Shown piece after piece: positions 7,395 to 52,130 of a DNA stretch of 64,000 nucleotides (position 1 is the first letter of the stretch; each line of letters begins with the position of its first letter). A program made the position numbers and the translations under genes. The notes beneath the pieces were generated by a model that was not told where the DNA came from, searched no databases, and saw nothing but the letters and a program-made list of their open reading frames with translations. Source of the stretch: Klebsiella phage NU-KP11; sequence record OR644643.1. The stretch is one strand, 5' to 3'.

Positions 7395-7437
7395 AATATA
7401 ACAAAGCCCCCGACCGGAGTCAAGGGCTTTTTATTAA
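7395..7437 (-). promoter_or_regulatory. Terminator-promoter module after the ligase gene (TTGACT in hairpin, 17 bp, TGTTATATT) plus leader ATCGAAACG
   Basis: Minus strand reads TAATAAAAAGCCCTTGACTCCGGTCGGGGGCTTTGTTATATTgcatATCGAAACG. Confidence 0.5.
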
Positions 7438-11598: not shown

Positions 11599-11868
11599 TT
11601 AATATTTTTCGTCAGGCTGAAACACCGCACGACACGCCCACATAGAGGCTTCTTTCAGTCGGTCTTTCGCTAGTTGAATTTGATGGATACGTTCAAGCAC
11701 CTCATCTAATTCTTCCTCTATCAGTGAATCAATATCTGAATTTGATAGTCGCTGTTCGATATCTTCCAGGATTGCACCTAATGCATTTTCAGCATCTTTG
11801 ATACGGTTTACTGTTTCTACTTTTTTATCAGTATGGGGTTTATAACCCGTAATATCAGAAATTGCCAT
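11599..11868 (-). CDS. Hypothetical acidic coiled-coil protein
   Basis: 89-aa ORF followed on the minus strand by a hairpin plus T-run terminator. Confidence 0.45.
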   Translation of the reverse strand: MAISDITGYKPHTDKKVETVNRIKDAENALGAILEDIEQRLSNSDIDSLIEEELDEVLERIHQIQLAKDRLKEASMWACRAVFQPDEKY

Positions 11869-12230
11869 TATAGACTCTCTGTAAAAGTACGGGCAATAAC
11901 ATCGCGTTGCTGTTCCGGCGTCAGGGAGTTAAAACGCACTGCATAACCAGATACACGGATCGTCAACTGCGGATATTTTTCAGGATGTTCAACCGCATCC
12001 AGGAGAGTTTCGCGGCGCAACACGTTAACGTTTAGATGTTGTCCACCTTCCACTTTAACAGTTGGCTGATATTCGATCTCGATCTCTCGCTTTGCAAACG
12101 GAGTAACGCGAGCTTTACCGATTACAGAATCCATAGTTAATGTTTTTGATACTACGATCCGAACGTCGTTACCTTCTTCCAGATAGATTGTGCCCGTATG
12201 CAAACCTTCTAAAATTTGAAATGCTTTCAT
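11868..12230 (-). CDS. grcA: Autonomous glycyl-radical cofactor, GrcA/YfiD-like (the T4 Y06I analog)
   Basis: The C-terminal 58 aa ([59 protein letters not shown]) is nearly identical to E. coli GrcA, including the radical glycine motif RVSGY. Confidence 0.85.
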
Positions 12231-30453: not shown

Positions 30454-30661
30454 AAGTGATCTCCATGATCATAGTTTCGGCGTTTATCATATAAGACAAA
30501 ACCCCTTCTTCTACTTCGAAATCGGGGTTTCTTACGTCAGTTGGATCGATGATAACCGGGATTCCCACGTTTTGCAACTCTAATTTTACGAAGTAGGGTA
30601 GCAAGTCAATTTCGTAATCGATATCAGTTAATATTTTGTTTAAGTCAATTATTGCTTTCAT
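30446..30661 (-). CDS. Hypothetical protein
   Basis: 71-aa ORF. Confidence 0.4.
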   Translation of the reverse strand: MKAIIDLNKILTDIDYEIDLLPYFVKLELQNVGIPVIIDPTDVRNPDFEVEEGVLSYMINAETMIMEITYD

Positions 30662-31185
30662 AGAAAATCTTCCAATGTTGGGAATACTTCCGCTTCCTTG
30701 TCTTTGGTTTTGGTGGCGGAAGCCTCGTACTGAGATAGTTTGTCATGTAGATCTTGAATGAAACCTTCGTCTGCAATACTAACCATATCTGAATCTTCGC
30801 AGTCGTAAACGTGCTCAAGGAAGAATTTATATTTCTTCGCGTTCTCTTTTTTCTCGTACAGAATACGTGTTACGAATGCTTGCCAACATGCTTTGTTAAT
30901 GTAACCGTAAACGTTGGTATAACGAGTTTCATCGAAGTTATGCAGTCCTGAGATTGCAGCGGAAATTCCGTCATCGATCATATCCATTTTCCAATCTTCG
31001 GAATAACGGTTGAAGTTGTAACGACGTGATAGCCCGTTTGCAATATCCATAATAGCAGCACCTAACTCATTAGGCATTTTGCGATCACCTGTTTCGGCGA
31101 TTTGCTTTTTCCATGCACAGAGGATAGGGTATAATTTTTCATTGTCTGCGTAGATATTGGTTGTTTCTTTAGTCATAGTATTCAT
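30658..31185 (-). CDS. 55: Late-transcription sigma factor gp55
   Basis: [64 protein letters not shown] aligns with T4 gp55 [73 protein letters not shown] SD. Confidence 0.88.
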   Translation of the reverse strand: [175 protein letters not shown]

Positions 31186-31208
31186 ATTTCCTCTTTGAAG
31201 TTAAGAAT

Positions 31209-31236
31209 ATTATATAATAACTGTAGACAAAATCAA
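31209..31236 (-). promoter_or_regulatory. Sigma70-like promoter for gene 55 (TTGATT-16-TATAAT, minus strand)
   Basis: Read directly from the minus strand: TTGATTttgtctacagttattaTATAAT, about 30 nt upstream of the gp55 SD. Confidence 0.5.
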
Positions 31237-31261
31237 ATTTCATTCTATATTATTTAAGGTT

Positions 31262-31412
31262 AAAGTAGATCTAATGATCTATAGATCAGATCTAAATTAT
31301 ATAAAATTTATTGATTTTAGTACTTGACCTACAATGATCATTGTAGTAAAATAATTATTAATTAATAAATTATAGATCATAAATTTGATCAGATCAAGTA
31401 TTATTGATCAAA
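31262..31412. promoter_or_regulatory. GATC-rich palindrome array in a 300-bp AT-rich divergent intergenic region
   Basis: Nine GATC sites in about 140 bp. Perfect palindromes TGATCTATAGATCA and CTACAATGATCATTGTAG. TGATCA occurs three times and AGATCT twice. Confidence 0.5.
31324..31352 (+). promoter_or_regulatory. Sigma70-like promoter P1 for rnh (TTGACC-17-TAAAAT) with an 18-bp palindrome in the spacer
   Basis: TTGACCtacaatgatcattgtagTAAAAT. The spacer is the perfect inverted repeat CTACAATGATCATTGTAG, which looks like an operator. Confidence 0.5.
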
Positions 31413-31431
31413 ATTTTTATGGTCTTTTGTA

Positions 31432-31459
31432 TTGACTTCATTTCGTAAGTTACTACAAT
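31432..31459 (+). promoter_or_regulatory. Sigma70-like promoter P2 for rnh (TTGACT-16-TACAAT)
   Basis: TTGACTtcatttcgtaagttacTACAAT, about 30 nt upstream of the rnh SD (GAGG) and the ATG at 31490. Confidence 0.55.
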
Positions 31460-31489
31460 AACCCCGTTCTTTGAAAAATTGAGGTATGT

Positions 31490-32425
31490 ATGAGCAGTTT
31501 TGCAAGCATGTTTAACTTGAACAAGCTGATGCAAGATGAAGGGGAACCCGATGATACTATGGTCATCGATATCTCTAACATTTCCATCGCTACACTGATG
31601 AACAACTTCAAACCAAAGGAACAAGCATCCATCACGATCGAAATGATTCGTCATCTGGTGCTTGACACTTTACGGTTTAACGTTGTAAAATTTAAAGGTG
31701 AGTATCCAGAAATCGTGATTGCCTTCGATGACAGAAATTACTGGCGTAGGCAAAAAGCCTGGTACTACAAAAAACGTCGTCAGATCGAACACGAAGAATC
31801 AGAATGGGATTGGGATCGTCTGAACAACTTCCTGAATCCTGTGTTCGAAGAAATCCGTCAGAATATGCCTTATCTCGGATTAAAGGTTGAATTCGCGGAA
31901 GCTGATGATATAATTGCTGTTGTTACGAAAAAAGCTGTTGGTGAAGGTAGACGAGTATTAGTGGTTTCTGCTGATAGCGACTTTACACAACTACAGAAAT
32001 ATAACGGTGTTCGTCAATGGTCGCCTCCCCAGAAAAAATGGGTAACGCCTAAGTACGGTTCACCACGTAACGATCTGCGATACAAAAATATCAAAGGCGA
32101 TAAAAAAGATAGTATCGCTTGCATTAAAATTAGAAATGATTATATTGTGACGAAGGTTGAAGGTGAACGCGCCCCAGCGGTAAAATCCTCTGAGTTAGAG
32201 GCATGGCTGGAGGCAGACGATCCTACAACATTGATGACCCCTGAATGGGCCGCACGTTACAAAGAAAATGAGGAACTACGCGATTTCGAATTTATACCAA
32301 AAGATATTGAAAATTCGATTATTGAAGCGTATAATACTCCAAAATCCGGAAGTAAAGCCAAAATGGAACGTTACTTCATGGATAACAAACTTTCCCGTAT
32401 GTTCGAAAAACTGAGTGATTTTTGA
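31490..32425 (+). CDS. rnh: RNase H (5'-3' exonuclease/FEN)
   Basis: MVRHLVLDTLRFNVVKFK...YWRRQKAWYYKKRR aligns with T4 RNase H MVRHLILNSIKFNVKKAK...YWRRDFAYYYKKNR. 311 aa. Confidence 0.88.
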   Translation: MSSFASMFNLNKLMQDEGEPDDTMVIDISNISIATLMNNFKPKEQASITIEMIRHLVLDTLRFNVVKFKGEYPEIVIAFDDRNYWRRQKAWYYKKRRQIEHEESEWDWDRLNNFLNPVFEEIRQNMPYLGLKVEFAEADDIIAVVTKKAVGEGRRVLVVSADSDFTQLQKYNGVRQWSPPQKKWVTPKYGSPRNDLRYKNIKGDKKDSIACIKIRNDYIVTKVEGERAPAVKSSELEAWLEADDPTTLMTPEWAARYKENEELRDFEFIPKDIENSIIEAYNTPKSGSKAKMERYFMDNKLSRMFEKLSDF

Positions 32426-32434
32426 GGTAACAAA

Positions 32435-32698
32435 ATGAGTGTAGAATTTTTACAAACAAACCCTGATGTAGCAAAACAGGTAAAAGAACTGATCAAAGAA
32501 GCATCCAACGTGAAAACTCAAGTTGAGATCTTCAACGGCACGTTCAAGGATATCAAATCCAAAGCAAAAACTGATTTCGGTATCGATGGAAAAACCTTCG
32601 GGAAACTGTTCAAACTGTATCACGAACAGGCCCGTACCGCTTTCGAAGAAGAAAACAACGAACTGATCGAACTGTATGATATGATCGATAAGGCGTAA
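32435..32698 (+). CDS. dsbA: dsDNA-binding protein DsbA
   Basis: LIKEASN...IKSKAKTDFGIDGKTFGKLFKLYHEQ aligns with T4 DsbA FIKEASD...IRIRAKDELGVDGKMFNRLLALYHKD. 87 aa. In T4 position after rnh. Confidence 0.75.
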   Translation: MSVEFLQTNPDVAKQVKELIKEASNVKTQVEIFNGTFKDIKSKAKTDFGIDGKTFGKLFKLYHEQARTAFEEENNELIELYDMIDKA

Positions 32699-45034: not shown

Positions 45035-45420
45035 ATATTGATTTTTGTAAGGCTGAAATAAAAGCGGATATGGACGAAAAAGAACCGAAGTTCGATAGTC
45101 CTCACAGTTCGCGCTGGATCGTAGCTGTTGACGATGAAGGTTATGTTACGGTATTATCTCGACCATTCATTCATGATGCATTCTTTGAATGTGGACGCAG
45201 CGCGGAAGATATCGGGCTTCCTGATTCTATCGAAATGCCTCCGGGTGTGTATGAATGGATCTGTGGTTTTGAACAAACTACTGACTGGGAAACCGGATAC
45301 GTGGACGGATGGGAATTCTATCCGAATGAAACAACATTATTGTATAGCTGGGACAATGGCAAAGTTAACGAAAGCGGAAACCAAGAAGCACAATCAGATA
45401 ATGGATCTGGTTCACTCTGA
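45031..45420 (+). CDS. Hypothetical acidic protein
   Basis: 129-aa ORF. Its 3' end overlaps the methyltransferase start. Confidence 0.45.
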   Translation: MNIDFCKAEIKADMDEKEPKFDSPHSSRWIVAVDDEGYVTVLSRPFIHDAFFECGRSAEDIGLPDSIEMPPGVYEWICGFEQTTDWETGYVDGWEFYPNETTLLYSWDNGKVNESGNQEAQSDNGSGSL

Positions 45421-46132
45421 CAAAGCGCTAACTTACGAAGAGAAGTTGTTCATCATTGAAAACTTTCATGAAGGCGCGTTTACAAATAATTCCGAATTAG
45501 GGGCGTTCTTTACCCCTATTGGACTTGCTCGCGATTTCACAATCGATGCTTGCACAGGTGGAAGTGTTATTGACCTGTGTGCTGGTATCGGTGGGTTATC
45601 TTTCGCTATGGTTCATTACATGATGTACAATACACCGCGTGAAATCGTCTGTGTTGAGTTAAATCACACATACTATGAGTTAGGTAAGCGTATCGTACCA
45701 GAAGCCTCCTGGGTGCATGGAGACGCCTTAACAACTGAATTTAATCAGGTGTTTGATATGGCGATCAGTAACCCGCCTTTTGGTAAAATCAAAACCTCTG
45801 ATTTTAAGGGTAAGTATACAGGGGCAGAATTTGAGTATAAAGTAATCGAACGTGCATCACAGATCGCGCGTCAGGGAACTTTTATAATCCCTCAAATGTC
45901 TGCAAATTTCCGGTATTCGAAAGCCCATTGTTTCCGACAAGATGACAGCACAACATCAAGTAAATGTAAAAAGTTTCTTGATGAAACTGGCCTTGTTATG
46001 AATCCTGGATGCGGTATAGATACTGGGTATTACCTGGAGGATTGGAAAGGGGTTAAACCACTATGCGAGGTTGTTTGTATGGAGTTTGAACCCGAAACCA
46101 AATCTGATTTATTCACTTTCACAATAGAGTAA
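45356..46132 (+). CDS. Gamma-class amino-methyltransferase (putative DNA N6-adenine MTase), unrelated to T4 Dam
   Basis: Motif I VIDLCAGIGGLSFAM (FxGxG) lies upstream of motif IV SNPPFG. The start is placed at MAKLTKAE. An alternative start is MDLVHS at 45401. The ORF-track extension back to 45128 has non-protein-like composition. Confidence 0.7.
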   Translation: MAKLTKAETKKHNQIMDLVHSDKALTYEEKLFIIENFHEGAFTNNSELGAFFTPIGLARDFTIDACTGGSVIDLCAGIGGLSFAMVHYMMYNTPREIVCVELNHTYYELGKRIVPEASWVHGDALTTEFNQVFDMAISNPPFGKIKTSDFKGKYTGAEFEYKVIERASQIARQGTFIIPQMSANFRYSKAHCFRQDDSTTSSKCKKFLDETGLVMNPGCGIDTGYYLEDWKGVKPLCEVVCMEFEPETKSDLFTFTIE

Positions 46133-52090: not shown

Positions 52091-52100
52091 AACAAAGCCC

Positions 52101-52130
52101 TTGACTTCGGTTGAGGGCTTTTGTTATATT
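52101..52130 (+). promoter_or_regulatory. Terminator-promoter module (TTGACT inside hairpin, 18 bp, TATATT)
   Basis: AAAGCCCTTGACTtcggttgAGGGCTTTTgtTATATT. Confidence 0.5.

What the first reader, a model, noticed from the sequence alone, without database searches (positions are those of the whole stretch)
31186..31489. A 300-bp AT-rich divergent control region packed with GATC-containing palindromes: candidate origin or Dam/SeqA-regulated switch
This is the only long non-coding stretch in the window. It lies between the divergent genes 55 and rnh. It carries nine GATC sites in about 140 bp, against roughly one per 100 bp or more elsewhere. All nine sit inside palindromes: TGATCTATAGATCA, the 18-bp perfect CTACAATGATCATTGTAG, TGATCA three times, and AGATCT twice. 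Three sigma70-like promoters fire outward, one toward 55 and two toward rnh. The 18-bp palindrome lies exactly in the spacer of rnh promoter P1, so it looks like an operator. Some T4 origins are promoter-plus-unwinding-element units, and as I recall T4 has an origin near this rnh/32 region. Clustered GATC sites are also the hallmark of Dam/SeqA-controlled elements such as oriC.
Basis: seen in the sequence. Interest (0 to 1): 0.6.

Follow-up and report, generated by a model that had tools for sequence, protein, structure and literature searches.

The report
GATC-studded AT-rich promoter/unwinding cassette
The GATC cluster between the late-sigma gene 55 and rnh of this T4-like Klebsiella phage is real, and it is one of three related cassettes that are the most easily melted DNA in the genome, so it is a good but unproven candidate for a methylation-sensitive promoter and replication-origin element.

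Summary
There are nine GATC in 142 bp (31268-31409), against about 0.9 expected from the window's GATC density and about 0.24 from local base composition. This is the densest GATC cluster in the window and in a whole related genome.

The window comes from a Slopekvirus, the KP15/KP27/phiEap-3 group of T4-like phages. All nine sites lie in a central cassette of about 165 bp (31258-31425). This cassette has two paralogues, one upstream of uvsY and one beside gene 3. Together the three are the most A+T-rich and least stable spots of the 177-kb genome. In their cores GATC occurs 22 times; every other arrangement of A, C, G and T occurs 0-3 times.

The cassettes share a four-member promoter family (CTTGA-N15-GATCTATAAT), each followed by a run of pure A/T. 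In the sister RB43 group the same three loci carry three copies of an unrelated dyad-symmetric element.

T4 oriF sits at the uvsY promoter, and T4 oriG and oriE lie 2-3.5 kb from the other two positions. T4 origins have no GATC clusters. I found no DnaA box and no MotA/AsiA homologue here.

Best reading: a promoter plus unwinding element, probably an origin, with Dam sites as the recurring signal. Function is inferred, not shown. The 18-bp "operator" idea is weak.

The parts
30658..31185 (-). Gene 55, the late-transcription sigma factor (175 aa). It is the left flank of the divergent region.
   Evidence: ORF found. Annotated as gp55 in the Matisse, KP27 and RB43 records.
31209..31236 (-). Proximal sigma70-like promoter for gene 55 (TTGATT-N16-TATAAT).
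   Evidence: Annotated in the KP27 record. A counterpart, TTGAAA-N17-TATAAT, is present in RB43 (read by eye from the sequence; one search confirms only that this flank aligns between the genera).
31244..31257 (.). The 14-mer TCTATATTATTTAA, conserved between Slopekvirus and the RB43 group. It marks the left edge of the lineage-specific cassette.
31258..31425 (.). Central Slopekvirus-specific cassette. It holds all nine GATC, has GC about 19%, contains three local dyad symmetries, and has paralogues at the uvsY and gene-3 loci.
   Evidence: MAFFT aligns the two flanks but not the centre with the RB43 group. Paralogy is shown. Folded as single-stranded DNA it gives z = -3.9 against shuffles. 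It lies among the three least stable sites of the genome.
31267..31293 (.). GATC cluster 1, AGATCTAATGATCTATAGATCAGATCT (four GATC). It includes the 14-bp palindrome at 31275-31288.
   Evidence: The block TTTAGATCTGATCT is identical in the gene-3 cassette.
31324..31352 (+). Promoter P1 facing rnh, TTGACC-N17-TAAAAT. The 18-bp palindrome (31329-31346) fills its spacer, with a GATC at the spacer centre.
   Evidence: KP27 annotation. The paralogue in the gene-3 cassette is TTGATC-N17-TAAAAT with GATC at the same spacer position but no palindrome.
31347..31374 (.). A 28-bp run of pure A/T between two facing -10 hexamers. Its centre is the palindrome TTATTAATTAATAA (31355-31368). This is the candidate unwinding element.
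   Evidence: All eight A/T-only runs of 20 bp or more in the related 177-kb genome lie in the three cassettes.
31369..31397 (-). Promoter of the GATC-TATAAT class facing gene 55 (TTGATC-N17-TATAAT). It carries three GATC, two overlapping or next to the -35 hexamer and one touching the -10 hexamer.
   Evidence: KP27 annotation. It is one of four copies of CTTGAnnTnATAAAnTnTnTGATCTATAAT.
31375..31409 (.). GATC cluster 2 (four GATC). It lies within an imperfect dyad with arms at 31376-31391 and 31405-31420.
31432..31459 (+). Proximal rnh promoter P2 (TTGACT-N16-TACAAT). It is conserved with the RB43 group.
   Evidence: KP27 annotation.
31490..32425 (+). rnh (RNase H / FEN, 311 aa). It is the right flank and the first gene of the rnh-dsbA-33-59-32 operon.

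Best explanation
The region is a composite. At its two edges are ordinary sigma70-type promoters for gene 55 and for rnh. These are conserved with the RB43 group.

Between them lies a Slopekvirus-specific cassette of about 165 bp. It is one of three paralogous cassettes in the genome. I propose that it acts as a promoter plus DNA-unwinding element, working like T4 oriF and oriG.

Proposed mechanism:
1. A near-consensus host-RNA-polymerase promoter, CTTGA-N15-GATCTATAAT, fires straight into a run of pure A/T. A second promoter faces it.
2. The transcript, or the open complex, keeps this least-stable DNA unwound.
3. That supplies a primer, or an entry point for the phage replisome. At the same time the promoters drive expression of the flanking replication, recombination and late-sigma genes.
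4. The GATC tetranucleotides sit on or next to the -35 hexamers, the -10 hexamers and the spacer centres. They are read as Dam sites. Fully methylated parental DNA would differ from hemimethylated or unmethylated daughter DNA in melting, in promoter strength or in SeqA binding. That would tie firing to the replication state.

Shown here: the anatomy, the paralogy, the extreme instability, the specificity for GATC, the conservation of the positions across genera, and the presence of a phage Dam gene.

Inferred only: promoter activity, methylation, R-loop formation or unwinding, and origin firing.
For: (1) GATC enrichment is specific. In the cores of the three cassettes GATC occurs 22 times and the other 23 permutations of A, C, G and T occur 0-3 times each. 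Between 37% and 58% of all G/C bases there lie inside a GATC. Shuffles never reach the observed counts.

(2) The three cassettes are the three lowest-GC 150-bp windows of the genome (9%, 11% and 17%; the next is 25%). They are also the three least stable 100-bp windows (-93, -96 and -101 kcal/mol; the genome mean is -132 +/- 6). They contain all eight A/T-only runs of 20 bp or more.

(3) Paralogy. Cassettes B and C align colinearly over about 140 bp (z = 11). Cassette A aligns to B and C with z = 5.5-7.8. Database BLAST with one cassette finds the others.

(4) There is a four-member promoter family with an invariant TGATCTATAAT, each followed by pure A/T. The copy upstream of uvsY points away from uvsY and runs antisense into late gene 24. 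It therefore has no gene to express. The primer RNAs annotated at T4 oriG and oriE are likewise antisense to late genes.

(5) Positions. The T4 record places oriF at the start of uvsY, oriG 2.2 kb upstream of rnh, and oriE 3.4 kb from the gene 3/2 junction. [quoted passage not shown] Here the cumulative GC skew has a local minimum 57 bp from cassette B.

(6) The RB43 group carries, at the same three loci, three copies of a different dyad-symmetric element. These copies are 80% identical with a 45-nt invariant core. The element is conserved at 84-100% across 62 of the 64 phage records that match it; the other two, Yersinia phage JC221 and Pantoea phage Phynn, match at 72-76%. So these three loci hold a cis-acting element family that has been replaced as a whole between the two genera.

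(7) The phage encodes a Dam-family methyltransferase.

(8) The ordinary early promoters of this phage are promoter/stem-loop cassettes without GATC. GATC is therefore not part of the general promoter consensus.
Against: - There is no experimental evidence of any kind for initiation, R-loops, methylation or binding.
- T4 origins have no GATC clusters. The correspondence with oriG and oriE is only to the neighbourhood, at 2.2 and 3.4 kb.
- GC-skew minima also follow from gene orientation alone.
- Promoter-like hexamers are only about twice as frequent as chance in such A+T-rich DNA.
- Individual GATC sites vary within the genus. One record keeps 4 of the 9 sites and one metagenomic genome keeps 8 of 9. 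The number of sites is therefore not tightly fixed.
- The RB43-group element does without GATC clusters. Dam sites are thus not needed for whatever the three loci have in common.
Confidence: 0.45

Rival explanations
1. It is purely a transcriptional control region. On this reading the cassettes are clusters of a special promoter class that drives the genes T4 expresses from MotA-dependent middle promoters (uvsY, rnh-32, 55-47-46). The GATC sites make those promoters sensitive to Dam methylation or SeqA. Expression would then change once the DNA has been replicated. There would be no role in starting replication.
For: - GATC sits at fixed promoter positions: touching the -10 hexamer in four promoters, at the spacer centre in two P1-type promoters, and in or next to -35 hexamers.
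- No MotA or AsiA is detectable, so another way of timing these genes is needed.
- The flanking genes are of the replication, recombination and late-sigma class.
- A phage Dam gene is present.
Against: - The promoter copy at uvsY points into the end of a late gene and has no gene to serve.
- This reading does not explain why these are the three least stable sites of the genome.
- It does not explain why the sister genus keeps an unrelated repeated dyad element at the same three loci.
- It is not exclusive of the origin reading, because T4 oriF is itself the uvsY promoter.
Confidence: 0.3
2. It is an array of binding sites for a specific dimeric DNA-binding protein, phage or host. The palindromes would be operators, with the 18-bp palindrome repressing rnh promoter P1.
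For: - Perfect 14-bp and 18-bp palindromes are present, and the 18-mer fills the P1 spacer exactly.
- The cassette has more self-complementarity than shuffles, z = -3.9.
Against: - The 18-mer, and even its 14-bp core, occur only once in the 177-kb genome.
- The paralogous promoter in the gene-3 cassette keeps only the central GATC.
- Beyond (A/T)GATC(A/T) and a preference for GATCTA, the 24 GATC sites share no extended consensus.
- No candidate repressor was identified.
Confidence: 0.1
3. It has no dedicated function. On this reading A+T-rich spacer DNA accumulated GATC by chance, by repeat slippage, or by copying among the three loci.
For: - Sites are gained and lost within the genus.
- Short tandem or dyad duplications are visible, such as GATCNGATC and AGATCTAA occurring twice.
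Against: - The enrichment is about 40-fold over local expectation at three separate loci, and it is exclusive to one of 24 equivalent tetranucleotides.
- Four GATC positions are kept between paralogues B and C although the sequence around them has diverged.
- The loci also hold a conserved element in another genus.
Confidence: 0.05

Closest known systems
Phage T4 origins oriF (ori-uvsY) and oriG (ori-34): a promoter plus a downstream unwinding element that forms an R-loop
   Same: - A prereplicative promoter is followed directly by an A+T-rich unwinding stretch, all within about 100-170 bp.
- One paralogue sits at the uvsY promoter, exactly where oriF is annotated.
- This copy lies upstream of rnh, in the neighbourhood of oriG.
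- It sits at a transcriptional divergence and skew switch, as described for oriE, oriF and oriG (PMC3016281).
   Different: - The T4 origin promoters are MotA-dependent middle promoters. Here there is no MotA box and no detectable MotA or AsiA.
- T4 origins share no motif and have 0-1 GATC per 400 bp. Here the three elements are paralogous and packed with GATC.
- oriG is 2.2 kb away, inside gene 34, which is located elsewhere in this genome.
E. coli oriC and plasmid-prophage P1 oriR: A+T-rich unwinding regions with clustered GATC, controlled by Dam and SeqA
   Same: - From my own knowledge, oriC has 11 GATC in about 245 bp. Here there are 9 in 142 bp, a higher density.
- Many sites begin GATCT followed by an A/T run. 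GATCTA is the commonest hexamer of the cassettes, with 17 copies. This resembles the oriC 13-mers, GATCTnTTnTTTT.
- A Dam enzyme is available.
   Different: - No DnaA box within one mismatch occurs in any of the three cassettes.
- T4-type phages do not use DnaA.
- Origin sequestration that limits re-initiation would be counter-intuitive for a lytic phage, unless it serves to switch off origin use once recombination-dependent replication takes over.
Dam-sensitive promoters (IS10 pIN, Tn5 transposase, Mu mom, P1 cre) and the P1 pac site with its TGATCA/G repeats
   Same: GATC lies inside -35 hexamers, -10-adjacent positions or spacers, so the methylation state could gate promoter use after replication. 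The clustered TGATCA hexamers recall P1 pac. Both comparisons rest on my own knowledge.
   Different: - Those elements have one to seven sites. This one is triplicated and embedded in extreme A+T DNA.
- T4-type phages package by the headful mechanism without a pac site of this kind.
- No dependence on methylation has been tested.
The three-copy dyad element of the RB43 group (Pseudotevenvirus), apparently undescribed
   Same: It occupies the same three loci (rnh|55, gene 3|next ORF, 24>uvsY) in the same orientation. It has an A+T-rich core and is flanked by the same conserved proximal promoters.
   Different: - The sequence is unrelated. Its arms carry GCGAAGC motifs, and there is a 45-nt invariant core. 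GC is 31-33%. Each intergenic region holds only two GATC, one or both in the flanking promoters.
- It has much stronger long-range dyad symmetry (z = -8.2).

Membership tests
T4 oriF/oriG-type R-loop origin | A prereplicative promoter that directs transcription into the element | tested here: inconclusive
   Near-consensus sigma70-type promoters are present (31397-31369 on the - strand, 31324-31352 on the + strand). Promoter-like matches are only about twice the chance level in this DNA, and no transcript data exist.
T4 oriF/oriG-type R-loop origin | The promoter is a MotA/AsiA-dependent middle promoter (MotA box at -30) | tested here: not met
   There is no (a/t)3TGCTT(t/c)A, and not even a TGCTT, in 31186-31489. 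No MotA or AsiA homologue was found by tblastn or phmmer, and Pfam gave no match on the ORFs at the corresponding positions.
T4 oriF/oriG-type R-loop origin | An A+T-rich unwinding element immediately downstream of the promoter | tested here: met
   A 28-bp run of pure A/T (31347-31374) starts at the -10 hexamers. The cassette is among the three least stable sites of the genome.
T4 oriF/oriG-type R-loop origin | Supports initiation: a persistent R-loop, autonomous plasmid replication in infected cells, and bubble arcs on 2D gels | not testable with these tools
   This needs infection experiments.
oriC / P1 oriR-type Dam-SeqA controlled origin | A cluster of GATC sites well above background inside the A+T-rich unwinding region | tested here: met
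   There are nine GATC in 142 bp against 0.24 expected locally, and this is the top cluster genome-wide.
oriC / P1 oriR-type Dam-SeqA controlled origin | Binding sites for the initiator protein (DnaA boxes or iterons) | tested here: not met
   No TTATCCACA within one mismatch occurs in any of the three cassettes. No evenly spaced iterons were found.
oriC / P1 oriR-type Dam-SeqA controlled origin | GATC sites are methylated by Dam and bound by SeqA when hemimethylated | not testable with these tools
   Only the enzyme could be checked. The phage encodes a D12-class Dam-family methyltransferase, which scores above the TIGR00571 cut-off.
Dam-regulated promoter | GATC lies within the -35 hexamer, the -10-adjacent position or the spacer of the promoter | tested here: met
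   GATC touches TATAAT in four paralogous promoters. It is inside the TTGATC -35 hexamer here. It is at the spacer centre of the P1-type promoters in cassettes B and C.
Dam-regulated promoter | Promoter activity depends on the methylation state | not testable with these tools
   This needs reporter assays in dam+ and dam- backgrounds.
Repressor-operator switch (18-bp palindrome) | The operator sequence recurs at co-regulated or paralogous promoters and has a cognate regulator | tested here: not met
   The 18-mer and its 14-bp core are unique in the genome. The paralogous promoter keeps only the GATC. No regulator was identified.
Promoter-early stem-loop (PeSL) cassettes of T4-type phages (PMC2839356) | A strong sigma70-like promoter combined with a G+C-rich stem-loop terminator | tested here: not met
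   There are no terminator-like hairpins in 31100-31600. PeSL-like cassettes do exist elsewhere in the window, at 7406-7429 and 52095-52118, and they carry no GATC.

The most novel reading that the evidence does not exclude
Slopekvirus and its RB43-group relatives each carry a recognisable family of three replication origins at conserved map positions (uvsY, rnh, gene 3). The element has been swapped as a whole set between the two genera. In Slopekvirus these origins would be gated by methylation: Dam sites built into the origin promoters and the unwinding element would let only fully methylated parental DNA fire. Daughter DNA would be silenced or sequestered, and replication would be handed over to the recombination-dependent mode. 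This would be the first sequence-defined and epigenetically controlled origin family in T4-type phages.
Probability: 0.2. Interest if true: 0.8.

Novelty: new variant of a known kind. Interest (0 to 1): 0.6.

Why it matters
T4 origins share no sequence motif. The main T4 review still lists as open questions what makes a T4 origin and what governs origin usage (PMC3016281).

This phage group offers a triplicated, easily recognised cassette: a promoter, a pure A/T stretch and Dam sites. A sister genus has a different triplicated element at the same three loci. That gives concrete 150-200 bp targets for marker-frequency, plasmid-replication and methylome experiments.

If the GATC sites prove functional, this would link phage-encoded Dam, whose role in T4-type phages is poorly understood, to the timing of replication or transcription. 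Slopekviruses are widely used as therapeutic candidates against Klebsiella, so their replication control also has practical interest.

If the cassettes turn out to be only promoters, they still define a new promoter class in a T4-like phage that lacks MotA and AsiA.

Tried and rejected
- Rfam scan of 30500-32500 at E <= 1: only a chance snoRNA match at E = 0.6. No RNA family.
- Terminator scan: none found.
- DnaA box, IHF consensus, MotA box and the T4 late promoter TATAAATA: all absent from the region.
- GATC as part of the general early-promoter consensus: rejected. The recurrent early promoters are stem-loop cassettes without GATC.
- An extended consensus around GATC, or helical phasing of the sites: none beyond (A/T)GATC(A/T) and a preference for GATCTA. 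The spacings are irregular.
- GATC clusters at the T4 origins: none.
- MotA and AsiA homologues: none found by tblastn, phmmer or Pfam.
- The conserved ORF next to the gene-3 cassette as a possible initiator: it matches only phrog_7322, of unknown function.
- Spread of the GATC-type promoter outside Slopekvirus: the IMG/VR pattern scan found it only in Slopekvirus contigs, plus two unrelated single promoters.
- Relatives of rnh in IMG/VR gave only six loci. The two distant ones have a different upstream gene and no GATC.
- Literature: nothing on GATC clusters, origins or repeated intergenic elements in KP15/KP27, Slopekvirus or RB43. One search was uninformative. The T4 genome review PMC150520 is not held.
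- A phage C5-cytosine methylase acting on GATC, as the cause of GATC-to-GATT changes: not supported. The second methyltransferase-like gene (window 45398-46129) has an NPPF motif and weak N6-methylase matches.

Full report
**Identity and setting**

The window is from a Slopekvirus, a T4-like Klebsiella/Enterobacter phage of the KP15, KP27, Matisse and phiEap-3 type. The locus is 99-100% identical to more than 100 GenBank genomes.

The finding lies between gene 55 (late sigma factor, minus strand, 30658-31185) and rnh (plus strand, 31490-32425). rnh heads the rnh-dsbA-33-59-32 block.

For genome-wide comparison I fetched a complete genome whose sequence is identical over window 31000-31700: RCIP0052, 177,464 bp. 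The full window is not an exact substring of that record, and the window runs in reverse orientation relative to it.

**Checking the observation**

There are nine GATC between 31268 and 31409.
- The window holds 429 GATC, one per 149 bp. That matches its Markov expectation.
- No other 150-bp stretch has more than 5 GATC in the window or more than 7 in the genome.
- Random placement gives a cluster of 9 or more in 0.2-0.3% of simulations.
- Given the local composition, about 0.24 GATC are expected, and 20,000 shuffles never reached 9.

The stated palindromes exist, and the 18-mer does fill the spacer of TTGACC-N17-TAAAAT.

Three small corrections apply:
- Seven of the nine sites, not all nine, lie in perfect palindromes.
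- There are four, not three, 10-of-12 sigma70-like matches with a TTGAnn first hexamer. The same four are annotated in the KP27 record.
- Promoter-like matches in DNA this A+T-rich are only about twice the chance level, 8 against 4.2 +/- 2.3.

**The region is a composite**

Alignment with RB43, GAP161 and Yersinia phage JC221 shows that the two edges are conserved across genera. On the gene 55 side this is TCTATATTATTTAA plus the proximal gene 55 promoter. On the rnh side it is the proximal rnh promoter TTGACT...TACAAT. The central stretch of about 165 bp (31258-31425), which carries all nine GATC, has no counterpart there.

**It is one of three paralogous cassettes**

A genome-wide scan found two more very A+T-rich intergenic regions with GATC clusters.
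- One lies upstream of uvsY (RCIP0052 11772-12075, 5 GATC).
- One lies between gene 3 and the next ORF (154729-155097, 10 GATC).
- Other intergenic regions have 0-4 GATC, the highest count being in two regions at 40-44% GC.

Further properties of the three:
- They are the three lowest-GC and the three least stable windows of the genome, 5-6 standard deviations from the mean.
- They hold all eight A/T-only runs of 20 bp or more.
- In their cores GATC occurs 22 times, and each of the other 23 permutations of A, C, G and T occurs 0-3 times. GATC accounts for 37-58% of all G/C bases. GATCTA is the commonest hexamer.
- The rnh and gene-3 cassettes align colinearly over about 140 bp (z = 11 against shuffles), with four GATC at aligned positions. 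The uvsY cassette aligns to both with z = 5.5-7.8.
- BLAST with one cassette finds the others in database genomes.

**Shared promoter class**

Four copies of CTTGAnnTnATAAAnTnTnTGATCTATAAT exist: one at uvsY, one here and two at gene 3. Each is followed by pure A/T. The window copy is 31397-31369 on the minus strand.

The uvsY copy points away from uvsY and runs antisense into the end of late gene 24, so it has no gene to express.

The P1-type promoter facing rnh has a paralogue in the gene-3 cassette (TTGATC-N17-TAAAAT). That paralogue has GATC at the same central spacer position but lacks the palindrome. The 18-mer is unique in the genome. So GATC itself is what is conserved, and the operator reading is weak.

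The ordinary early promoters of this phage are promoter/stem-loop cassettes that carry no GATC.

**Comparison with the sister genus**

In RB43 the same three loci carry three copies, in the same orientation, of an unrelated element.
- Its arms contain GCGAAGC motifs and flank an A+T-rich core with a 45-nt invariant stretch. The copies are 80% identical.
- Its dyad symmetry is strong (z = -8.2).
- It is conserved at 84-100% across 62 of the 64 phage records that match it. It is also recognisable in Yersinia phage JC221 and Pantoea phage Phynn, at 72-76% identity. The GCGAAGC motif is also present in the 55|rnh intergenic region of Pectobacterium phage POP12.

So the three loci hold a family of cis-acting elements, and that family has been replaced as a set between the genera. 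The Slopekvirus cassette is also more self-complementary than chance (z = -3.9).

**Comparison with T4**

The T4 GenBank record annotates three origins relevant here:
- oriF at the start of uvsY, with the uvsY transcript as primer.
- oriG 2.2 kb from rnh inside gene 34, with a primer antisense to gene 34.
- oriE inside gene 5, 3.4 kb from the gene 3/2 junction, with a primer antisense to gene 5.

[quoted passage not shown] It notes that oriE, oriF and oriG lie at transcriptional divergence and skew-shift points (PMC3016281). Here the cumulative GC skew has a local minimum 57 bp from this cassette, although gene orientation alone could produce that.

Against strict membership of the T4 origin type:
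- T4 origins have no GATC clusters.
- There is no MotA box.
- No MotA or AsiA homologue is detectable.

Against an oriC-type origin, there is no DnaA box.

The phage does encode a Dam-family methyltransferase.

**Variation within the genus**

Individual sites are not fixed.
- One metagenomic genome has AGATCT changed to AGATTT.
- RCIP0021 loses two GATC in the uvsY cassette.
- The records CPRSA and CPRSB lose 5 of 9 and 6 of 10 GATC. In CPRSB the changes are mostly C-to-T or G-to-A within GATC; in CPRSA they are more mixed. Few other differences occur in the intergenic regions. These two records have many broken genes, so the changes may be artefacts of basecalling at methylated sites.

**Interpretation**

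The anatomy fits best a promoter plus unwinding element that works like T4 oriF and oriG, with Dam sites as the lineage-specific recurring signal.

The main rival is a purely transcriptional role: a promoter class sensitive to Dam or to replication state, standing in for the missing MotA system. The two readings are compatible, because T4 oriF is itself the uvsY promoter.

Operator and chance explanations are poorly supported. No paper I could search describes any of this. All functional statements are inferences from sequence. The decisive experiments are listed separately.

Noticed in passing
RB43 NC_007023: 32496-32816 (L012), 103622-103903 and 138361-138599 (L013 3622-3903 and 38361-38599): There are three copies, in the same orientation, of a dyad-symmetric non-coding element of about 180 bp. 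Its arms carry GCGAAGC motifs, and it has a 45-nt invariant A+T-rich core, TATTTTATATATAGAGAAAAATGTAGTTTTTGGTAT. The copies sit at the rnh|55, gene 3 and uvsY loci. The element is conserved across Pseudotevenvirus. I found no description of it in the literature.
   Followed up: partly
L030 (CPRSB, gene-3 cassette), L010 (CPRSA, this locus), L027 (RCIP0021, uvsY cassette), L015: Differences between Slopekvirus genomes in these cassettes fall disproportionately on GATC sites. In CPRSB most are C-to-T or G-to-A at the GATC cytosine (GATC to GATT, AATC or AATT). CPRSB loses 6 of 10 sites with no change in 282 bp of coding flank. This is either real site-directed loss or nanopore basecalling error at methylated GATC. 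The CPRSA and CPRSB records have many broken genes.
   Followed up: partly
GenBank phiKp_9, phiKp_15 and phiKp_23 (about 140.9 kb, plus 35.0-35.1 kb second contigs held for phiKp_9 and phiKp_23), KLB10, phiKp_1; IMG/VR contigs of 142,227 and 143,983 bp: Several independent assemblies end exactly at the uvsY cassette or the gene-3 cassette; phiKp_9 ends at both. The 143,983-bp contig is of RB43 type. Likely causes are loss of coverage in DNA of 9-11% GC or the repeats themselves, but real ends were not excluded.
   Followed up: no
window 7406-7429 (-) and 52095-52118 (+); RCIP0052 30617, 47768, 61000, 108048, 118406, 135173, 145743: A recurrent promoter/stem-loop cassette, AAAAAGCCCTTGACTTCGGTCnGGGGCTTTTGYTATATT, in which the hairpin spans the -35 hexamer and the spacer. 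It resembles the PeSL cassettes described for RB49 and phi1, and it is the common early-promoter type in this phage.
   Followed up: partly
window 45398-46129 (+): A second DNA-methyltransferase-like gene (244 aa, NPPF motif, weak N6_Mtase and MTS Pfam matches). It is 87% identical to RB43 ORF030c. It is probably what the KP15/KP27 paper calls 'Dcm', but it looks like an amino-methyltransferase of unknown specificity.
   Followed up: partly
whole RCIP0052 genome (L003-L006): No MotA or AsiA homologue is detectable by tblastn, phmmer or Pfam. An 89-aa ORF does sit next to the holin gene t, exactly where asiA sits in T4. TATAAATA, the T4 late-promoter core, does not occur at all in the 64-kb window.
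   Followed up: partly
RCIP0052 155098-155886 (L006 5098-5886) and RB43 ORF200w: A conserved ORF of unknown function (phrog_7322) is inserted between gene 3 and gene 2, directly downstream of the gene-3 cassette, in both genera. It is absent from T4 at this position.
   Followed up: partly
RCIP0052 2078-2260 (tail sheath gene): A coding-region GATC cluster (7 in 211 bp) that includes a fifth GATCTATAAT. It has no -35 hexamer and no A+T-rich context, so it is probably chance.
   Followed up: no
window 31394-31654 (-): An 86-aa ORF that runs antisense across the rnh start and into the cassette. It is almost certainly spurious, and some records annotate 'hypothetical protein' here.
   Followed up: no
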